A stretch of DNA of 64,000 nucleotides from a phage. Location: the NCBI GenBank assembly GCA_023802575.1, contig GCA_023802575.1_3947.1. One strand, written 5' to 3'. Positions 45,567 through 52,688 of the stretch are shown one piece after another; position 1 is the stretch's first letter; every line of letters begins with the position of its first letter. The position numbers and the translations under genes are program-made. The notes under the pieces are model-generated. The model searched no databases. It saw only the letters and a list, made by a program, of their open reading frames with translations, and was not told the DNA's origin.

Positions 45567-45856
45567 GGTGCTTCCTCTTTACGTGACACTTTGCCATTTA
45601 CAGTTATCTCATAAGAATCTAGTAAATCGCTTTTAGCTTTGACAGGACTTTTAAGAGTATCATCATAGATATTAACTTGCAATACAGGTTTTTTATACCC
45701 CATGCAACTATTCCATAAGCAAATCACTACACGACGACCTTTTATTTTACCGTGTAACCATTCCATAACATCATGGCTGTTTCTTGATGTTTCAATGAAA
45801 TCAATTTTGTTGAGTAACTTGCTTAGATTTTCACGAACTTTATTTGATAATTTCAT
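45560..45856 (-). CDS. Small accessory protein
   Basis: 98 aa; overlaps downstream gene start. Confidence 0.5.
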   Translation of the reverse strand: MKLSNKVRENLSKLLNKIDFIETSRNSHDVMEWLHGKIKGRRVVICLWNSCMGYKKPVLQVNIYDDTLKSPVKAKSDLLDSYEITVNGKVSRKEEAPC

Positions 45857-45871
45857 TTTTGAATCTCCAGT
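45857..45871 (-). promoter_or_regulatory. Truncated cassette (leader only)
   Basis: CCTAAACTGGAGATTCAAAAATG without hairpin. Confidence 0.4.
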
Positions 45872-46084
45872 TTAGGATAAAATAGTAATCGTAAAATTGT
45901 AATGACCATTAAGCTGATAAGCATAACAGTTAGAGAATACACCAACTAACCGAGGTTTTCCATAAATTTTCATGCGCTCTTTAATCTCTTTGAGAGATTT
46001 CAAACCTGTAAGGTCTTTATTGAAATAGTCATCATCTGTGAACAGGACTTGTGAGGCGGTTTTCAGTTTTTGATTAATGTTCAT
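45872..46084 (-). CDS. Small accessory protein
   Basis: 70 aa. Confidence 0.45.
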   Translation of the reverse strand: MNINQKLKTASQVLFTDDDYFNKDLTGLKSLKEIKERMKIYGKPRLVGVFSNCYAYQLNGHYNFTITILS

Positions 46085-46172
46085 TTTTGAATCTCCAGTT
46101 TAGGATTTAGTGGTAAAGCTCTTTATCTGGGGCTTAAGGTATCAGCTTTTAAGCCCCCTGTAAAGTACTTTA
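46085..46172 (-). promoter_or_regulatory. Intergenic cassette, type 2
   Basis: Hairpin GGGGCTTAAAAGCTGATACCTTAAGCCCC plus leader. Confidence 0.6.
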
Positions 46173-46431
46173 TCAGATTAAATTGCCAGTTAATGATAAG
46201 TGCATTTTATAGCCTTTTTTGGTAAAGACGTTCACTTTACCGAGTGATTTTACACCTTTAAAAAGGTTGTTTGAACTGCGTTTTAAGGTTAGTTGTTTAT
46301 CAACCTTCACGCCCCACCTTACAGCAGATTGTTTTCCGTTGTCAACCACTTTCCCGCATAACTTTTTAGCCATGATACGAGCGTCATCACGAGTTTTTAC
46401 AGTAATTACAACGTTTTTGATAATAGCCATT
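46173..46431 (-). CDS. Small basic protein
   Basis: 86 aa from ATG at 46431 (MAIIKN) with GGAGAAC RBS; Lys-rich. Confidence 0.5.
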
Positions 46432-46516
46432 TTTAAGTTCTCCAATTTAGGATTTAGTGGTAAAGTTCTTTATCTGGGGCTTACTTTATCGGACTATAAG
46501 CCCCTTGTAAAGTACT
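46432..46516 (-). promoter_or_regulatory. Intergenic cassette, type 2
   Basis: As above. Confidence 0.6.
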
Positions 46517-46900
46517 TTATTTGTTAATTTTGAAGATAGTTACGTAACCATCACTACCGATTATTTGAGACGCTCCAGCTTTTTCTACTTGATAGCCCAT
46601 ATTTTCAAGATGATAAATAGCATCATCGTAACCGTATGCGCCACCCTGATAACGTCTCTTGTCACATCTTATCAGGTTTTTTCCACGTCCTGCAAGTGCA
46701 TGGAGAATGGATTTTTCACTTGAAAGAGTACCATCTAGCATTGTAGCTGTGTAATGGTTGATTTTATTCCCGTTGATATCGTACTTGAAATTAAATGAGT
46801 GAACAACAATAACGTTACCTTTAAAATTCTCATCAAGTGACTTCTCCAGTGCGTTGCGAAAGTTGTCTTTGTTCACGAATTTAGGTGCACGGTATGCCAT
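46517..46900 (-). CDS. Accessory protein
   Basis: 127 aa; first gene of the cassette array. Confidence 0.5.
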   Translation of the reverse strand: MAYRAPKFVNKDNFRNALEKSLDENFKGNVIVVHSFNFKYDINGNKINHYTATMLDGTLSSEKSILHALAGRGKNLIRCDKRRYQGGAYGYDDAIYHLENMGYQVEKAGASQIIGSDGYVTIFKINK

Positions 46901-46975
46901 TTTTGAATCTCCAGTTTAGGACTTTGTTTAGTGGGGAAGGTCATTCCCTCCCCGTTGATGCAAATACTAGATAAC
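46901..46975 (-). promoter_or_regulatory. Intergenic cassette, type 1
   Basis: CAACGGGGAGGGAATGACCTTCCCCACTAAACAAAGTCCTAAACTGGAGATTCAAAAATG. Confidence 0.6.
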
Positions 46976-47420
46976 CACGTTCAAAGAGTCAAGAAAAATT
47001 TTAAAAATATTTTTGGCAAAACTGTAATGAAACGGGCGCACACGACTACCACAAAACAGAACACAAATCAAGAATTATTTTTCAATCCGCTACAAATTTT
47101 TCTCTTGACTTTTGGGGAGAGGGGGAGTAAGAGGGGGAGAGGGGTTGGTCTGGCTGTTTATAAAAACCTACCTGCACAATTCTAAAATGATTTTTCTTGC
47201 CCGACCTGAGCGGGGTCTGCACGTTTTGAAAATGAAAAAGCTCTTTGGAGATTACCTGCACAGTTTGAAAATGAATTTTCCCTTTGGAGTTCAAAATTCT
47301 CTCCACAGATTTCTGTCCAGACTTTTACCTGCACAATTCTGAAATGAAAAAGCCCCCCTTACCTGAAAAATTTACCAGATAAGAAAGGCTTAGTCTATTG
47401 TGTATATTCTACACAGTTTC
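46976..47420. repeat. Non-coding region with purine G-tract and four direct repeats
   Basis: GGGGAGAGGGGGAGTAAGAGGGGGAGAGGGG at about 47110-47147; four copies of CTGCAC(A/G)NTT(C/T)(T/G)(A/G)AAATGA at about 47170, 47215, 47255, 47328. Confidence 0.6.
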
Positions 47421-48206
47421 TTAGTTCTTTGCGTCTAAGAAGGTAACTTCTGGTGATGAGAAGATTGCCTTAACATTCTCATCAGTTCTCGCATAAATGT
47501 AAGCATCTGCATCACTACCGAATGTCACAGCAATACGATTATTGCTCTTTGACAGGCGGGTAACTAGAGCGTTACTTAGAGACATCTTTTCAACCGGAGG
47601 GTTACTTTGATGTATCTTACCCTTTCTACGTCTGAAGAGGGTAACTGCATTATCTGTGAACACTGCTATACCTGCAAAATATTCTGGTTCACAATAGTTC
47701 TTCCAACCTGAGCGTAACTTGTGGTACATCTCACCTTCATAGACATATAAGTAAACGTCTACGCTTTTCATTACCTGATTGATGATAACGGTGACAGCTT
47801 GATGGTCAAGTCCACCGATACCTGCACCAATCATAGGTAAACCAACTTTCTTCAACTGATTAACTTCGCAGTACCTGTTAAGTTTCTTCAAAGATGACTC
47901 TAAAGCACTGTATCTGGCATCTTTACCAGTTTTAAGCTGAGTGTAGAGGTTAGCTATACGGCCTTGTTCTAAACGTGCTACAGAGATATTACCTAGTAAA
48001 TCCTCACAGGGTTTATGTCCAATGCCACCTGCGTACAAGTAAACTTCTGTGTCAGTTTCATAGGCTTTTGGGTAAAGTTTAGAAATCTTGTCAGCAATAC
48101 CTGCACCCATTAAGTTCATACAGTTGCAACCGTGTCCAATGACATCAAACTTGCCTTTATCAAAAGCATTAAAGATATCACCATTGATGATTTTTACAAT
48201 ACCCAT
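47421..48206 (-). CDS. Macro-domain protein (ADP-ribose binding/processing) with C-terminal extension
   Basis: 261 aa; N-terminal GDIFNA...DVIGHGCNCMNLMGAGIADKI matches the macro-domain N-x(n)-G-x-G-I-A signature (TARG1/DarG-like flavour); later Gly-rich loop LPMIGAGIGGLD. Confidence 0.65.
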   Translation of the reverse strand: MGIVKIINGDIFNAFDKGKFDVIGHGCNCMNLMGAGIADKISKLYPKAYETDTEVYLYAGGIGHKPCEDLLGNISVARLEQGRIANLYTQLKTGKDARYSALESSLKKLNRYCEVNQLKKVGLPMIGAGIGGLDHQAVTVIINQVMKSVDVYLYVYEGEMYHKLRSGWKNYCEPEYFAGIAVFTDNAVTLFRRRKGKIHQSNPPVEKMSLSNALVTRLSKSNNRIAVTFGSDADAYIYARTDENVKAIFSSPEVTFLDAKN

Positions 48207-48207
48207 C

Positions 48208-48408
48208 TTAACATCTCTCCCAAGATTCTTTGTCTTCAGAAGGTTTTACACGTTGCCCTTCATGGTCTACCCAGATGCACCCACAACCTTCACAGATTAC
48301 TGGCATTGCATAACCAGCTTTAAAGTCATCTTCAGTGATAAGACCTTTTAAGTCACCTGTATCACGTCCGAACATTTCAATAGAACAGTCTTTGCAGAAG
48401 TCAGCCAT
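48208..48408 (-). CDS. Small zinc-ribbon protein
   Basis: 66 aa; CKDC and CEGCGC cysteine pairs. Confidence 0.45.
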   Translation of the reverse strand: MADFCKDCSIEMFGRDTGDLKGLITEDDFKAGYAMPVICEGCGCIWVDHEGQRVKPSEDKESWERC

Positions 48409-50952: not shown

Positions 50953-51478
50953 GGTTTACCTTAGAAATGTTTGTTGCAAATTCACATTGAGCAATCACTT
51001 TCATATTGTTATAGACATCTTGAGAATATTTCTTAGCTTTAGGGATTTTGTACGAATACCCAGCATTATATGATGCTAAAACTTTTTGTAAAGTCTTCTT
51101 TGACTTTGGCTGACCATGCACCTTTGTCCAAAACTCAAGTTCTTTGTGAGTTTCCTTCGCAGCATAATCAAAGTCTCTTAAGAGTTTCTTTTTAGCCACA
51201 TTAGGGCTAATTTTGTTACGCTTTACAACAGTCTTCAAGTGATTCTGGAAAATACCATAATCATGTGTCTTTTTATTCTCTACCTTCAGACCTAACTCTG
51301 ACTCTTGTAAGGCTATAGCAGCTAGAGTGATACCCCAACCTTTGCCCATGTTATTCTCACCATACTGGTAAGCTTTTAACATGTTTACTTTTTGGCTAAT
51401 TGATAGCTCTGGGCAGTCAACTGCATAAGATAAGTGTGCTGTAAACATTAAGCACAAACCTAGAATCAATTCCTTCAT
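50930..51478 (-). CDS. Lytic transglycosylase (SLT domain) with signal peptide
   Basis: 182 aa; signal-like MKELILGLCLMFTAHLSYA; SLT catalytic context AIALQESELG and YGIFQ. Confidence 0.6.
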   Translation of the reverse strand: MKELILGLCLMFTAHLSYAVDCPELSISQKVNMLKAYQYGENNMGKGWGITLAAIALQESELGLKVENKKTHDYGIFQNHLKTVVKRNKISPNVAKKKLLRDFDYAAKETHKELEFWTKVHGQPKSKKTLQKVLASYNAGYSYKIPKAKKYSQDVYNNMKVIAQCEFATNISKVNHEKIKKV

Positions 51479-51540
51479 TGGTTCTCCTGTTTAGTTTATC
51501 GTGACAACAATTATACAGCACTCTGCACAAAATACAAATA

Positions 51541-51566
51541 AAAAAGGCCGCCGAAGCAGCCTTTTA
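51541..51566 (-). terminator. Rho-independent terminator
   Basis: Minus-strand hairpin GGCTGC-ttcg-GCGGCC followed by T run. Confidence 0.5.
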
Positions 51567-51578
51567 AGAAATTACTTA

Positions 51579-52688
51579 TTAGATTTCACGTTTACGTTGA
51601 GAGATGAGTTCACCAGCAGTGCCAACGATAACATGTAGAGCTTCAGTCTTGCCATCCCATGCTTTCAGAACATTACGCTGGCTATCAACGATAGCTGCAA
51701 CTTCATAACGTGATGAACGCATTTTCATATCATTGTAATCAGTTGGAACAGATACAACATCTCGTGGGTGGACACGAACTTTCAGGATTGTATCACCTGA
51801 GAAGCTACGAACATAATCCCAAGCACCAACATGAAGACCTTGAGAGCAAGTCACGTTACGGTTATTATCAACCATCCAACGTGGCATCTCTACAATGTTA
51901 CCCAAATCGTTAGGAACTTTGTAGGTGTGGGAGTCAACCAGCTTACCTTCACGAGTAGAGACTTTCTTCCAACCAATGATGTAACCTTCTTCATCAATTT
52001 CAACATCAAGGTGAGATACAAATCCCCAAAGTTGTTCTACAGAATCTTTAGATGGGTTTTCCATCAGTTTTTCGAAGAACATTACAAGTCGTTCAAAACC
52101 TTTATCACCAGTTTTCATCATGTGAAGAATACGGTCAACCAGAGTAGAACGCATCTCAACAGCACCGTAGAATAGCTTGTCGCCTTTGATTGTGATAGCA
52201 CCCTGAGTGAAGTTTTCGATAGACTTACGAATGTTCATCAGTTCAAATGCTTTCTTGAACTCACCTTTCACAACATGAACTACAATCTCTTGATAGTTCG
52301 GATGAGTAGACTCAACAATTTCAGATTCTGAACCATAAGTCATAATTACAGAATCACCAGTAATCATGTACTCAATCTTGTCATCTTTCTGCATAGCTTC
52401 GTGCAGTTTATTTACTGGAGCTTTCTGTACAGTGTCTTTAACGACCTTTTCAACTGGTTTGCCAGCTTTCTTTTTAAAGGTCTTAGCAACTTGCTTCAAA
52501 GTCTTCGTAGCTGGTGTAGAAGTTGCCTTTTTATTCCCTTTTAGGGTTGCTTCATGACGCTCTACAGCACGACCAACTGAACGGGTTGAGGTGTTAAATT
52601 TCTGTGCAATAGCTGTTTTGGTCAGCTTACCTTCTTTTACCAGTTTGTAAATTTCTGCGTCAATCTGTGCTTTAGTTTTAGTAGTCAT
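51579..52688 (-). CDS. rIIB: rIIB-like protein
   Basis: 369 aa; blocks VDRILHMMKTGDKGFERLVMFFEKLMENPSKDS, CSQGLHVGAWDYVRSF and VHPRDVVSVPTDYNDMKMR match my recollection of T4 rIIB; immediately downstream of rIIA-like gene. Confidence 0.7.
   Translation of the reverse strand: MTTKTKAQIDAEIYKLVKEGKLTKTAIAQKFNTSTRSVGRAVERHEATLKGNKKATSTPATKTLKQVAKTFKKKAGKPVEKVVKDTVQKAPVNKLHEAMQKDDKIEYMITGDSVIMTYGSESEIVESTHPNYQEIVVHVVKGEFKKAFELMNIRKSIENFTQGAITIKGDKLFYGAVEMRSTLVDRILHMMKTGDKGFERLVMFFEKLMENPSKDSVEQLWGFVSHLDVEIDEEGYIIGWKKVSTREGKLVDSHTYKVPNDLGNIVEMPRWMVDNNRNVTCSQGLHVGAWDYVRSFSGDTILKVRVHPRDVVSVPTDYNDMKMRSSRYEVAAIVDSQRNVLKAWDGKTEALHVIVGTAGELISQRKREI

What the first reader, a model, noticed from the sequence alone, without database searches (positions are those of the whole stretch)
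46976..47420. Purine G-tract and four direct repeats between the macro-domain gene and the accessory island
A 38-nt purine run with five G4-5 blocks is very unusual in this AT-rich genome and could form G-quadruplex or triplex structure. It is followed by four spaced copies of CTGCAC(A/G)NTT(C/T)(T/G)(A/G)AAATGA. The plus-strand ORFs called here are repeat-derived. The position at the head of the cassette island suggests a regulatory or recombination-associated element.
Basis: seen in the sequence. Interest (0 to 1): 0.5.

Follow-up and report, generated by a model that had tools for sequence, protein, structure and literature searches.

The report
Conserved repeat array in Felix-O1-like phages
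The gap after the macro-domain gene of this Felix-O1-like phage holds a terminator, four copies of an 18-bp two-part motif and back-to-back promoters; this module is conserved across the whole phage subfamily, while the eye-catching G-rich tract is only the replaceable spacer of one of those promoters.

Summary
The window is a Felixounavirus (96% identical to phages bumzen and UAB_Phi87). The 520-bp gap 46901-47420 is non-coding and as conserved as the adjacent macro-domain gene.

The four repeats are real: 4 found against 0.07 expected, and nowhere else in 64 kb. Their core, TGCAC-N7-AAATGA, is the best-conserved feature across four Ounavirinae genera. It is exact in 170 of 181 units and always lies just downstream of the macro-domain gene.

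The G tract is real but mis-described. It is 31 nt with one T and four G-runs, and it is the only canonical G4 motif in the window. It is not conserved. It fills the 17-nt spacer and discriminator of a candidate plus-strand sigma-70 promoter, TTGACT-17-TAAGAG. About 40% of relatives carry an unrelated T-rich spacer of the same length with TAGCCT. Erwinia relatives have a near-consensus promoter firing into the repeats.

I found no conserved ORF, no RNA structure, no Rfam match and no host or plasmid homologue. The locus is not the terminal repeat, which lies 7 kb away.

Best reading (about 0.4): iteron-like protein-binding DNA sites inside a short promoter-driven non-coding unit. Main rival (about 0.3): a plus-strand repeat-bearing non-coding RNA. 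The function is not established.

The parts
47350..47391 (-). Rho-independent terminator ending the early operon that includes the macro-domain gene. It has a 17-bp stem with an 8-nt loop, followed by TTTCATTTCA.
   Evidence: scan. (dominant hairpin in the minus-strand fold). (compensatory CG<->GC and UA->GC/AU changes, and U-G pairs that exist only on the minus-strand RNA). Annotated as a terminator in wV8 and AYO145A.
47330..47347 (.). It overlaps the T-tail of the terminator.
47257..47274 (.).
47218..47235 (.).
47173..47190 (.). This unit and its flank, GGTCGGGCAAGAAAAATCATTTT, are nearly identical in Erwinia phages.
47114..47144 (+). G tract and only canonical G4 motif in the window. It occupies the spacer, overlaps the -10 hexamer, and covers the discriminator and first transcribed bases of the candidate plus-strand promoter.
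   Evidence: unique quadruplex motif. (an allelic, non-homologous replacement in relatives).
47105..47133 (+). Candidate sigma-70 promoter firing into the repeats: -35 TTGACT 47105-47110, 17-nt spacer, -10 TAAGAG 47128-47133, then a GGGGA discriminator.
   Evidence: TTGACT is present in 42 of 47 unique sequences and the spacer is always 17 nt. The -10 hexamer is TAAGAG in 23, TAGCCT in 15, TAATAG in 2, TAGTCG in 1 and TAGTCT in 1. Erwinia phage M7 has TTGACG-18-TATACT in the same orientation. It is not called by the consensus scan because position -7 is G.
47043..47071 (-). Candidate second minus-strand promoter: TTGATT-17-TAGTCG. It sits back-to-back with the plus-strand promoter, with 34 bp (47072-47105, i.e. 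up to the start of the plus -35) between the two -35 hexamers, inside a block conserved between genera.
   Evidence: Read from the sequence and alignment A1. Moogle has TTGACT-17-TAGTTG and Mordin has TTGACT-17-TATTCG. This is inferred only.
46964..46992 (-). Early-type promoter of the first cassette gene: TTGACT-17-TAGTAT with an A/T-rich upstream element.
   Evidence: Conserved in alignment A1.
46933..46960 (-). Leader CATCAAC plus hairpin GGGGAGGGAATGACCTTCCCC, followed by the GGAG ribosome-binding site (46909-46912) and ATG (46898-46900). It is one of five copies heading cassettes in the island.
   Evidence: 5 copies, 0 expected. Annotated as DR_6 in wV8.

Best explanation
The gap is a conserved control module of the subfamily Ounavirinae. 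In transcription order on the minus strand it contains three parts.

(1) A strong intrinsic terminator that closes the early operon ending in the macro-domain gene.

(2) Four direct copies of a roughly 27-bp asymmetric site. Each site has an A- or T-tract of about 5 bp, then TCATTT, then an A/T-rich spacer of exactly 7 bp, then GTGCA, then a genus-specific tail (GGTA in Felix and Moogle types, TAGG in Erwinia types).

(3) Back-to-back sigma-70-type promoters. One drives the cassette island. The other fires back into the repeats.

I read the four repeats as iteron- or operator-like binding sites on double-stranded DNA for one sequence-specific protein. That protein is probably phage-encoded, because the tail of the site co-varies with phage genus. 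It would contact two successive major grooves about 12 bp apart. The inward-facing promoter transcribes through the protein-DNA complex.

The most likely role is a unique cis-acting nucleoprotein site. My first choice is a transcription-activated origin-type element. My second choice is a gate or insulator between the conserved early operon and the variable cassette island.

The G tract is simply the spacer and discriminator of the inward promoter in one of two alleles. It may tune that promoter, but it is not the conserved functional feature.

Shown: the anatomy, the conservation, the non-coding status, the promoter geometry and the terminator.

Inferred: that the promoter fires, that a protein binds, and what the complex does.
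For: The repeats are unique in 64 kb and far above chance.

The same array is found in Felixounavirus, Mooglevirus, Suspvirus, Kolesnikvirus and a more divergent contig. It is always directly downstream of a macro-domain gene homologue, down to 41% amino-acid identity.

The core is exact in 170 of 181 units from 47 unique arrays, while the flanks and the 7-nt spacer vary.

The spacer length within the unit is invariant and the spacer is A/T-rich. The 5-nt tract 5' of TCATTT is either an A-run or a T-run. These are equivalent for duplex DNA shape but not for single-stranded RNA.

Nucleotide identity of the gap to other genera is 0.77-0.80. This equals or exceeds the macro-domain gene (0.75) and far exceeds its third codon positions (0.59-0.63).

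No frame is conserved.

No RNA structure is detectable. Fold z-scores are 0.01 and -0.81, and the RNAalifold consensus is -1.6 kcal/mol.

Promoter geometry is conserved across non-homologous spacer alleles. Erwinia phages have a 10-of-12 consensus promoter aimed at the array.
Against: No binding protein is identified.

Unit-to-unit spacing (37-75 bp) is irregular and not helically phased, unlike classical iterons.

The region is not a helix-stability minimum; the least stable DNA is at 39-40 kb. GC skew shows no switch here. No initiator gene is adjacent.

The -10 hexamers TAAGAG and TAGTCG lack the critical T at -7, so promoter activity is unproven.

A conserved promoter aimed at a non-coding stretch that ends at a hairpin is also the classic signature of an RNA gene.

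Some natural isolates carry only three intact units.
Confidence: 0.4

Rival explanations
1. Non-coding RNA gene. The plus-strand promoter makes an RNA of about 250 nt (320 nt in Erwinia phages). It consists of four modules, UGCAC-N7-AAAUGA, and ends at or reads through the shared hairpin. The RNA would act as a multivalent decoy or sponge for an RNA-binding protein or nuclease, for example as an antitoxin mimic, or as an antisense regulator of the 3' end of the macro-domain gene.
For: The layout of promoter, repeats and hairpin matches a small-RNA or type III antitoxin locus (the ToxI layout is described in PMC3475682).

Promoter geometry is conserved, and Erwinia phages have a near-consensus promoter.

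There is no conserved ORF.

Unit lengths of 37-45 nt are in the range of type III antitoxin repeats.

Every unit contains AAAU. From my own memory, this is the ToxN cleavage motif.

The neighbourhood is an early accessory region next to a macro-domain gene.
Against: No conserved RNA structure was found.

The units share only a bipartite core rather than being near-identical.

A-run and T-run interchange makes little sense for RNA recognition.

The terminator is built for the opposite strand. Its U-G pairs become C-A mismatches on the plus-strand RNA.

There is no Rfam hit even at E<=10.

There is no similar sequence in 5,426 E. coli genomes or 72,556 plasmids. No enterobacterial hit was found for the two-unit motif in 185,579 species genomes.
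Confidence: 0.3
2. The G tract is a G-quadruplex or triplex structural switch and is the main functional element.
For: It is the only canonical quadruplex motif in 64 kb. G-rich versions are kept in Felix O1, Moogle and SUSP1. It lies on the non-template strand across a promoter.
Against: 17 of 42 unique relatives with this promoter replace it with a T-rich, non-homologous spacer and keep everything else. Erwinia phages have only three G3 runs. Conservation tracks the hexamers and the 17-nt length, not the G runs.
Confidence: 0.05
3. The units are tandem minus-strand promoters, or UP-like RNA polymerase docking sites, of a phage-specific class that boost cassette expression. TCATTT would sit near -30 and GTGCAGG would abut a TAnnnT hexamer.
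For: After GTGCA the bases tend towards GG-TA-nnn-T: T 76%, A 68% and T 59% at the relevant positions. Units B and D resemble the UP-element consensus, which I quote from my own knowledge. The orientation is the same as the downstream genes.
Against: The motif occurs nowhere else in 64 kb, so it is not a promoter class. Unit C lacks any -10-like hexamer. In Erwinia phages the TA is shifted by 2 nt. The one near-match at 51541 places GTGCA in a different register relative to its TATAAT.
Confidence: 0.08
4. The repeats are inert scars of repeated cassette gain and loss at the edge of a shuffling island. They would be recombination junctions without a function of their own.
For: The island is built from repeated promoter-hairpin cassettes. 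Sub-segments of the gap exist as alternative alleles. One metagenomic contig is fused to host mukB inside the array.
Against: The core is exact in 94% of units across genera whose macro-domain proteins share only 41-60% identity, while adjacent bases are free to vary. That pattern indicates purifying selection. There are no matching copies at the other island border.
Confidence: 0.07

Closest known systems
Iteron arrays of lambda-type and plasmid theta origins (ori-lambda with four O-protein sites; F, P1 and R6K Rep iterons)
   Same: Both have four to five direct copies of an asymmetric site of about 18-22 bp. Both have A-tracts beside each copy, occur once per genome, and have nearby transcription directed through or towards the array.
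   Different: Spacing here is 37-75 bp and unphased, rather than about 22 bp. There is no adjacent A/T-rich unwinding element. No initiator gene was recognised and no DnaA boxes are present. There is no sequence similarity.
T4 oriF/oriG and the T7 primary origin (a promoter plus a downstream element, primed by the transcript)
   Same: In both, a promoter fires into a short non-coding stretch in a virulent phage that encodes its own replisome.
   Different: Those origins rely on an easily unwound A/T-rich element and carry no repeated bipartite motif. The G-rich, R-loop-friendly segment seen here is present in only one allele.
ToxI and phage pseudo-ToxI type III antitoxin repeat RNAs (PMC3475682)
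   Same: The layout of promoter, direct repeats of about 36-45 nt and a stem-loop is shared. Both are found in a non-coding gap of a lytic myovirus.
   Different: The repeats here are not near-identical. There is no Rfam match and no cognate host array or toxin was found. The hairpin is optimised for the opposite strand.
PeSL (promoter-early stem-loop) cassettes of T4-type phages. This comparison rests on my own knowledge of Arbiol et al. 2010 and was not re-read here.
   Same: The adjacent island is built from repeated sigma-70 promoter plus hairpin modules that head small variable genes. The locus studied sits at its upstream border.
   Different: The four-repeat array is not one of those modules. 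It is unique, lies upstream of them and has a different motif.

Membership tests
G-quadruplex-forming sequence | Four runs of at least 3 G separated by loops of 1-7 nt | tested here: met
   47114-47144 is the only such motif in the window.
G-quadruplex-forming sequence | Conservation of the G-runs in orthologous loci, if the motif is functional | tested here: not met
   17 of 42 unique relatives carry a T-rich spacer instead.
G-quadruplex-forming sequence | Folding in vitro (circular dichroism, melting, K+ dependence) | not testable with these tools
   This needs an oligonucleotide experiment.
Sigma-70 promoter (the plus-strand candidate at 47105-47133) | A -35 hexamer close to TTGACA and a 16-18 bp spacer | tested here: met
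   TTGACT with a 17-nt spacer, invariant in 42 unique sequences across two non-homologous spacer alleles.
Sigma-70 promoter (the plus-strand candidate at 47105-47133) | A -10 hexamer with A at -11 and T at -7 | tested here: inconclusive
   TAAGAG lacks T at -7, whereas the alternative allele TAGCCT has it. Erwinia phages have TATACT. The consensus scan does not call it in the window.
Sigma-70 promoter (the plus-strand candidate at 47105-47133) | A mapped transcription start | not testable with these tools
   No transcript data for any Ounavirinae were found in the paper library.
Iteron-type replication origin | Several direct repeats of a 17-22 bp protein-binding site | tested here: met
   Four 18-bp cores with conserved flanks. 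The protein binding itself is not tested.
Iteron-type replication origin | An adjacent A/T-rich DNA-unwinding element | tested here: not met
   The least stable 100-bp stretch in the gap (window size for the stability scan) ranks about 12,000th of 63,900 positions. The minima lie at 39-40 kb.
Iteron-type replication origin | A cognate initiator gene at or next to the origin | tested here: inconclusive
   The neighbours are a macro-domain gene, a 66-aa CxxC protein and variable cassettes with no Pfam match. Coenus has no initiator annotated in the first 50 kb examined, which covers the array and its neighbours; the remaining ~35 kb was not examined.
Iteron-type replication origin | Replication starts there | not testable with these tools
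   This needs marker-frequency or 2-D gel analysis.
Type III antitoxin / pseudo-antitoxin RNA | A tandem array of near-identical repeats of about 34-45 nt | tested here: not met
   The units share only an 11-base bipartite core. Spacing is 73/39/45, and only Erwinia phages are near-tandem at 37-39.
Type III antitoxin / pseudo-antitoxin RNA | Sequence similarity to a host antitoxin array, or to a known family | tested here: not met
   Rfam gave nothing at E<=10. E. coli genomes and plasmids gave no match. Species-representative genomes gave no enterobacterial hit.
Type III antitoxin / pseudo-antitoxin RNA | A promoter upstream and a terminator downstream on the repeat strand | tested here: inconclusive
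   A promoter candidate is present. The hairpin is weakened on this strand by C-A mismatches.
Rho-independent terminator | A G+C-containing hairpin followed by a U-tract, with the structure conserved | tested here: met
   (17 pairs plus a T-tail). (compensatory changes in 5 of 9 consensus pairs).
Direct terminal repeat / packaging end of Felixounavirus | Identity with the experimentally determined 608-bp terminal repeat of UAB_Phi87 | tested here: not met
   The published repeat (PMC4837284, Fig. S1) maps to window 39581-40165 at 88% identity, 7 kb away from the array.

The most novel reading that the evidence does not exclude
The locus may be a phage gene for an unstructured non-coding RNA with four modules, transcribed antisense to its neighbours. 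The RNA would act as a decoy or antitoxin against a still-unidentified host RNA-targeting or abortive-infection system. With the adjacent macro-domain gene it would form a conserved counter-defence pair at the head of the accessory island. This would be a second, independent and subfamily-wide case of RNA-based counter-defence after pseudo-ToxI.
Probability: 0.1. Interest if true: 0.8.

Novelty: new member of a known kind. Interest (0 to 1): 0.45.

Why it matters
Felix O1 and its relatives are classical typing and biocontrol phages. Their origin of replication, their temporal control of transcription and their non-coding elements are all unknown (PMC3185647).

This gap is annotated in GenBank either as nothing or as up to five spurious 'hypothetical proteins'.

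The analysis gives a concrete target for finding the origin, a new regulator or a counter-defence RNA. It shows a unique array of bipartite sites under selection as strong as that on the neighbouring gene. The array is tied to a conserved inward-facing promoter. It is present in every genus of the subfamily examined.

The work also corrects the tempting G-quadruplex reading.

Tried and rejected
1. Genome terminus or terminal repeat. This was suggested by the roughly 600-bp non-coding size. It is rejected because the published UAB_Phi87 repeat is a different sequence that maps to 39581-40165.

2. Protein-coding on either strand. Rejected on non-triplet spacing differences between genera, a 2-nt deletion in wV8, and no third-position pattern in the variable bases.

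3. Known RNA family. Rfam at E<=10 gave only noise.

4. Structured RNA. Fold z-scores are 0.01 and -0.81, and the alignment fold is -1.6 kcal/mol.

5. Host or plasmid cognate array. None was found. The hits in genome, viral and metagenome scans outside Ounavirinae were coding repeats or unrelated tandem repeats.

6. Origin signals. There is no GC-skew switch and no helix-stability minimum.

7. Matches by eye to DnaA, IHF, CRP, LexA, NtrC, marbox, sigma-54 and sigma-E consensus sequences. None fits in sequence and spacing. These are my own comparisons from memory, not tool results.

8. Expansion of the array in the evolved VpaE1 lines. The longer match is only extra cassette genes.

9. Literature search. 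No transcript map, origin or non-coding RNA has been described for this group.

10. A fifth unit at 51541. It is an ordinary terminator-plus-promoter junction with a chance partial match.

Full report
**Identity and setting**

The window is a Felix-O1-like myovirus of the genus Felixounavirus. The 631 bases around the finding match 238 phage records. They are 96% identical to phages bumzen, UAB_Phi87 and others.

All genes in this part of the window lie on the minus strand. The finding sits in a 520-bp gap, 46901-47420. On one side is a 261-aa macro-domain protein gene (47421-48206; Pfam Macro, E=3e-7). On the other is the first small gene (46517-46900) of a run of small variable genes. In wV8 these genes are separated by annotated direct repeats DR_1 to DR_9.

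**Checking the observation**

There is no other match in 64 kb even with two mismatches. Chance expectation is 0.07.
- The G tract is real but was overstated. It is 31 nt (47114-47144), is interrupted by a T, and has four G4-5 runs. No pure purine run of 20 nt exists in the window. It is, however, the only canonical quadruplex motif on either strand.
- The ORFs called across the repeats are artefacts. They are annotated as up to five 'hypothetical proteins' in some records. Unit spacing is 73/39/45 in Felixounavirus, 75/41/45 in Mooglevirus and Suspvirus, and 37/37/39 in Erwinia phages. wV8 also has a 2-nt deletion between units. The most variable base within a unit falls on what would be a second codon position.

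**Anatomy, read in the direction of transcription (minus strand)**

1. Directly after the stop codon of the macro-domain gene comes a 17-bp hairpin with a T-tail, at 47391-47350.
   - Its stem contains U-G pairs that exist only in the minus-strand RNA. On the plus strand it breaks into short helices.
   - Related phages show compensatory changes in the stem.
   - It is therefore a genuine terminator for the early operon.
2. The four repeat units follow. The first overlaps the T-tail of the terminator.
3. Next comes the C-rich (plus-strand G-rich) tract.
4. Then a roughly 100-bp block that is highly conserved between genera.
5. Then a clear early-type promoter, TTGACT-17-TAGTAT, with an A/T-rich upstream element at 46992-46964.
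6. Then a leader hairpin that recurs five times in the island.
7. Finally the ribosome-binding site and the start codon.

**Conservation**

A sensitive search finds the gap in 289 phage records. These include Citrobacter and Shigella phages of Mooglevirus and phage SUSP1 at 72-77% identity. A 100-bp core, the repeats, is also found in Erwinia phages of Kolesnikvirus.

In every case the gap lies directly after the macro-domain 'phosphatase' gene.

Against Mooglevirus and Suspvirus, the gap is 77-80% identical in aligned positions. The macro-domain gene is 75% identical, and its third codon positions are 59-63% identical. The non-coding DNA is therefore constrained at least as strongly as the coding DNA.

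Within the gap the most conserved element is the repeat core. It reads TCATTT-N7-GTGCA on the minus strand and TGCAC-N7-AAATGA on the plus strand.

Exact-pattern scans of viral and metagenome collections recovered the array only from contigs of Ounavirinae size and content. Each has a macro-domain gene homologue immediately upstream, down to 41% protein identity. One divergent 88-kb contig has five units.

Over 47 unique arrays, 170 of 181 units detected with up to two mismatches have the exact core. A few isolates have one mutated or deleted unit.

**What the G tract is**

On the plus strand the tract lies between TTGACT (47105-47110) and TAAGAG (47128-47133), which are exactly 17 nt apart. 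It continues as a GGGGA discriminator.

In 42 of 47 unique related sequences TTGACT is present with a 17-nt spacer. Of the other five, four are Erwinia-type sequences and one is the mukB-fused contig L036. Two unrelated spacer alleles exist:

| Allele | Spacer | -10 hexamer | Unique sequences |
|---|---|---|---|
| G-rich | G-rich | TAAGAG | 23 |
| G-rich variant | G-rich | TAATAG | 2 |
| T-rich | T-rich | TAGCCT | 15 |
| T-rich variant | T-rich | TAGTCT | 1 |
| T-rich variant | T-rich | TAGTCG | 1 |

Within each allele the spacer varies while both hexamers stay fixed. The distance from the -10 to the first repeat is 39 bp in both Felixounavirus alleles. This is the pattern expected of a promoter, not of a quadruplex element.

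The upstream context, AAATTTTTCT-TTGACT, mirrors that of the cassette promoter on the other strand (inverted repeat I3).

In Erwinia phage M7 the corresponding inward-facing promoter is near-consensus: TTGACG-18-TATACT, 10 of 12 positions. It lies 34 bp back-to-back with the minus-strand promoter.

Two caveats apply:
- TAAGAG lacks the T at -7, and the simple scan does not call it.
- No transcript map exists for this group.

A second possible minus-strand promoter, TTGATT-17-TAGTCG at 47071-47043, lies back-to-back with the plus-strand one. It has the same odd G at -7. I infer it from the alignment only.

**What the repeats are not**

- They are not the genome end. The sequenced 608-bp terminal repeat of UAB_Phi87 (PMC4837284, Fig. 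S1) maps to 39581-40165.
- They match no Rfam family even at E<=10.
- Neither strand folds better than shuffled sequence.
- 26 aligned sequences give no consensus RNA structure, at -1.6 kcal/mol.
- Nothing similar exists in 5,426 complete E. coli genomes or 72,556 plasmids. A two-unit pattern finds no enterobacterial genome among 185,579 species representatives.
- There is no GC-skew switch and no helix-stability minimum at the locus.

**DNA site or RNA?**

Three features point to recognition of duplex DNA:
- The core is bipartite with an invariant 7-bp, A/T-rich spacer. This places the two conserved blocks about one helical turn apart.
- The 5-nt tract next to TCATTT is an A-run in some units and a T-run in others. 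These are equivalent for DNA groove geometry but very different in RNA.
- The units share only this core and are otherwise free to vary, like operators or iterons and unlike antitoxin repeats.

The tail after GTGCA differs by genus: GGTA in Felix and Moogle types, TAGG in Erwinia types and the divergent contig. This suggests a co-evolving, phage-encoded partner rather than a host factor.

Against this, the layout of promoter, roughly 250 nt without an ORF, then a hairpin is what an RNA gene looks like. It also matches the ToxI layout (PMC3475682).

I therefore rank the readings as follows:
- Protein-binding DNA sites inside a short transcribed non-coding unit: about 0.4.
- A repeat-bearing non-coding RNA: about 0.3.
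- Tandem phage-specific promoters, inert recombination scars, and a G4 switch: each below 0.1.

**Function**

A unique cis-acting array that is transcribed from a dedicated promoter most resembles a transcription-activated origin. Ori-lambda has four iterons and needs nearby transcription. T4 and T7 origins are a promoter plus a downstream element.

However, several defining features of such origins are not met. There is no unwinding element, no initiator nearby, and the spacing is irregular.

The alternative is a nucleoprotein gate or insulator between the conserved early operon and the variable, strongly promoted cassette island.

I cannot decide between these with sequence alone. The experiments that would decide are listed under the decisive next steps.

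**Verdict**

- The G-quadruplex interpretation is not supported as the conserved function.
- The repeats are a genuine, subfamily-wide, unannotated non-coding element of unknown function. It is built from known kinds of parts.
- Interest is moderate. It would be high if the RNA counter-defence reading or the origin reading were proven.

Noticed in passing
window 39581-40165 (minus orientation): [quoted passage not shown] The window therefore spans the physical genome end. The surrounding 38.9-40.5 kb is the least stable, most A/T-rich DNA of the window. It is full of TGTTAAGA-type repeats that include the heptamer ATCTGTT.
   Followed up: partly
window 40945-46960, minus strand: There are five copies of the leader (C/A)ATCAACGGGGAGG(G/C)AAT(G/A)ACC hairpin. 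Those checked are preceded by an A/T-rich element and a TTGAC(A/T)-17-TAnnnT promoter, and head small variable genes. This is a promoter-plus-stem-loop cassette system like the PeSL modules of T4-type phages. It corresponds to DR_1 to DR_9 of wV8.
   Followed up: partly
L036 4213-4487 (IMG/VR contig IMGVR_UViG_3300045988_004180, 89 kb): In this Felixounavirus contig the array breaks off inside unit D's flank. It continues into sequence that I recognise as E. coli mukB (it encodes [22 protein letters not shown]). The two sequences are joined at a 10-bp microhomology, CCCGACCTGA. This is either an assembly chimera or a real illegitimate recombination with host DNA.
   Followed up: no
window 47043-47048 and 47128-47133; relatives and L137: Several conserved promoter-like elements in this gap have -10 hexamers of the form TAnnnG (TAAGAG, TAGTCG, TAGTTG, TATTCG), paired with perfect -35 spacing. 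This is odd for sigma-70 and could mark a class that depends on an activator or on a modified polymerase.
   Followed up: no
window 48208-48408, minus strand: A 66-aa protein with two CxxC pairs (CKDC...CEGC) is encoded immediately upstream of the macro-domain gene. It keeps this position in Felixounavirus, Mooglevirus and Suspvirus. It has no Pfam match. It could be a zinc-ribbon nucleic-acid or polymerase binder and is a candidate partner for the repeats.
   Followed up: no
L113 440-1170 (divergent 88-kb contig): Here the macro-domain protein is only 148 aa and is preceded by a Dam-like methylase. The array has five units in a 2+3 arrangement. It is followed at once by a block of TTAACA/TGTTAA repeats reminiscent of the terminal-repeat region, before the next early promoter.
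   Followed up: partly
window 51478-51580, minus strand: This is a compact terminator (GGCTGCTTCGGCGGCC plus a T-run) followed by a promoter (TATAAT) junction upstream of the 182-aa gene. It carries a one-mismatch copy of the repeat core, TTATTT-N7-GTGCA, in a different register. I judged it a chance match.
   Followed up: yes
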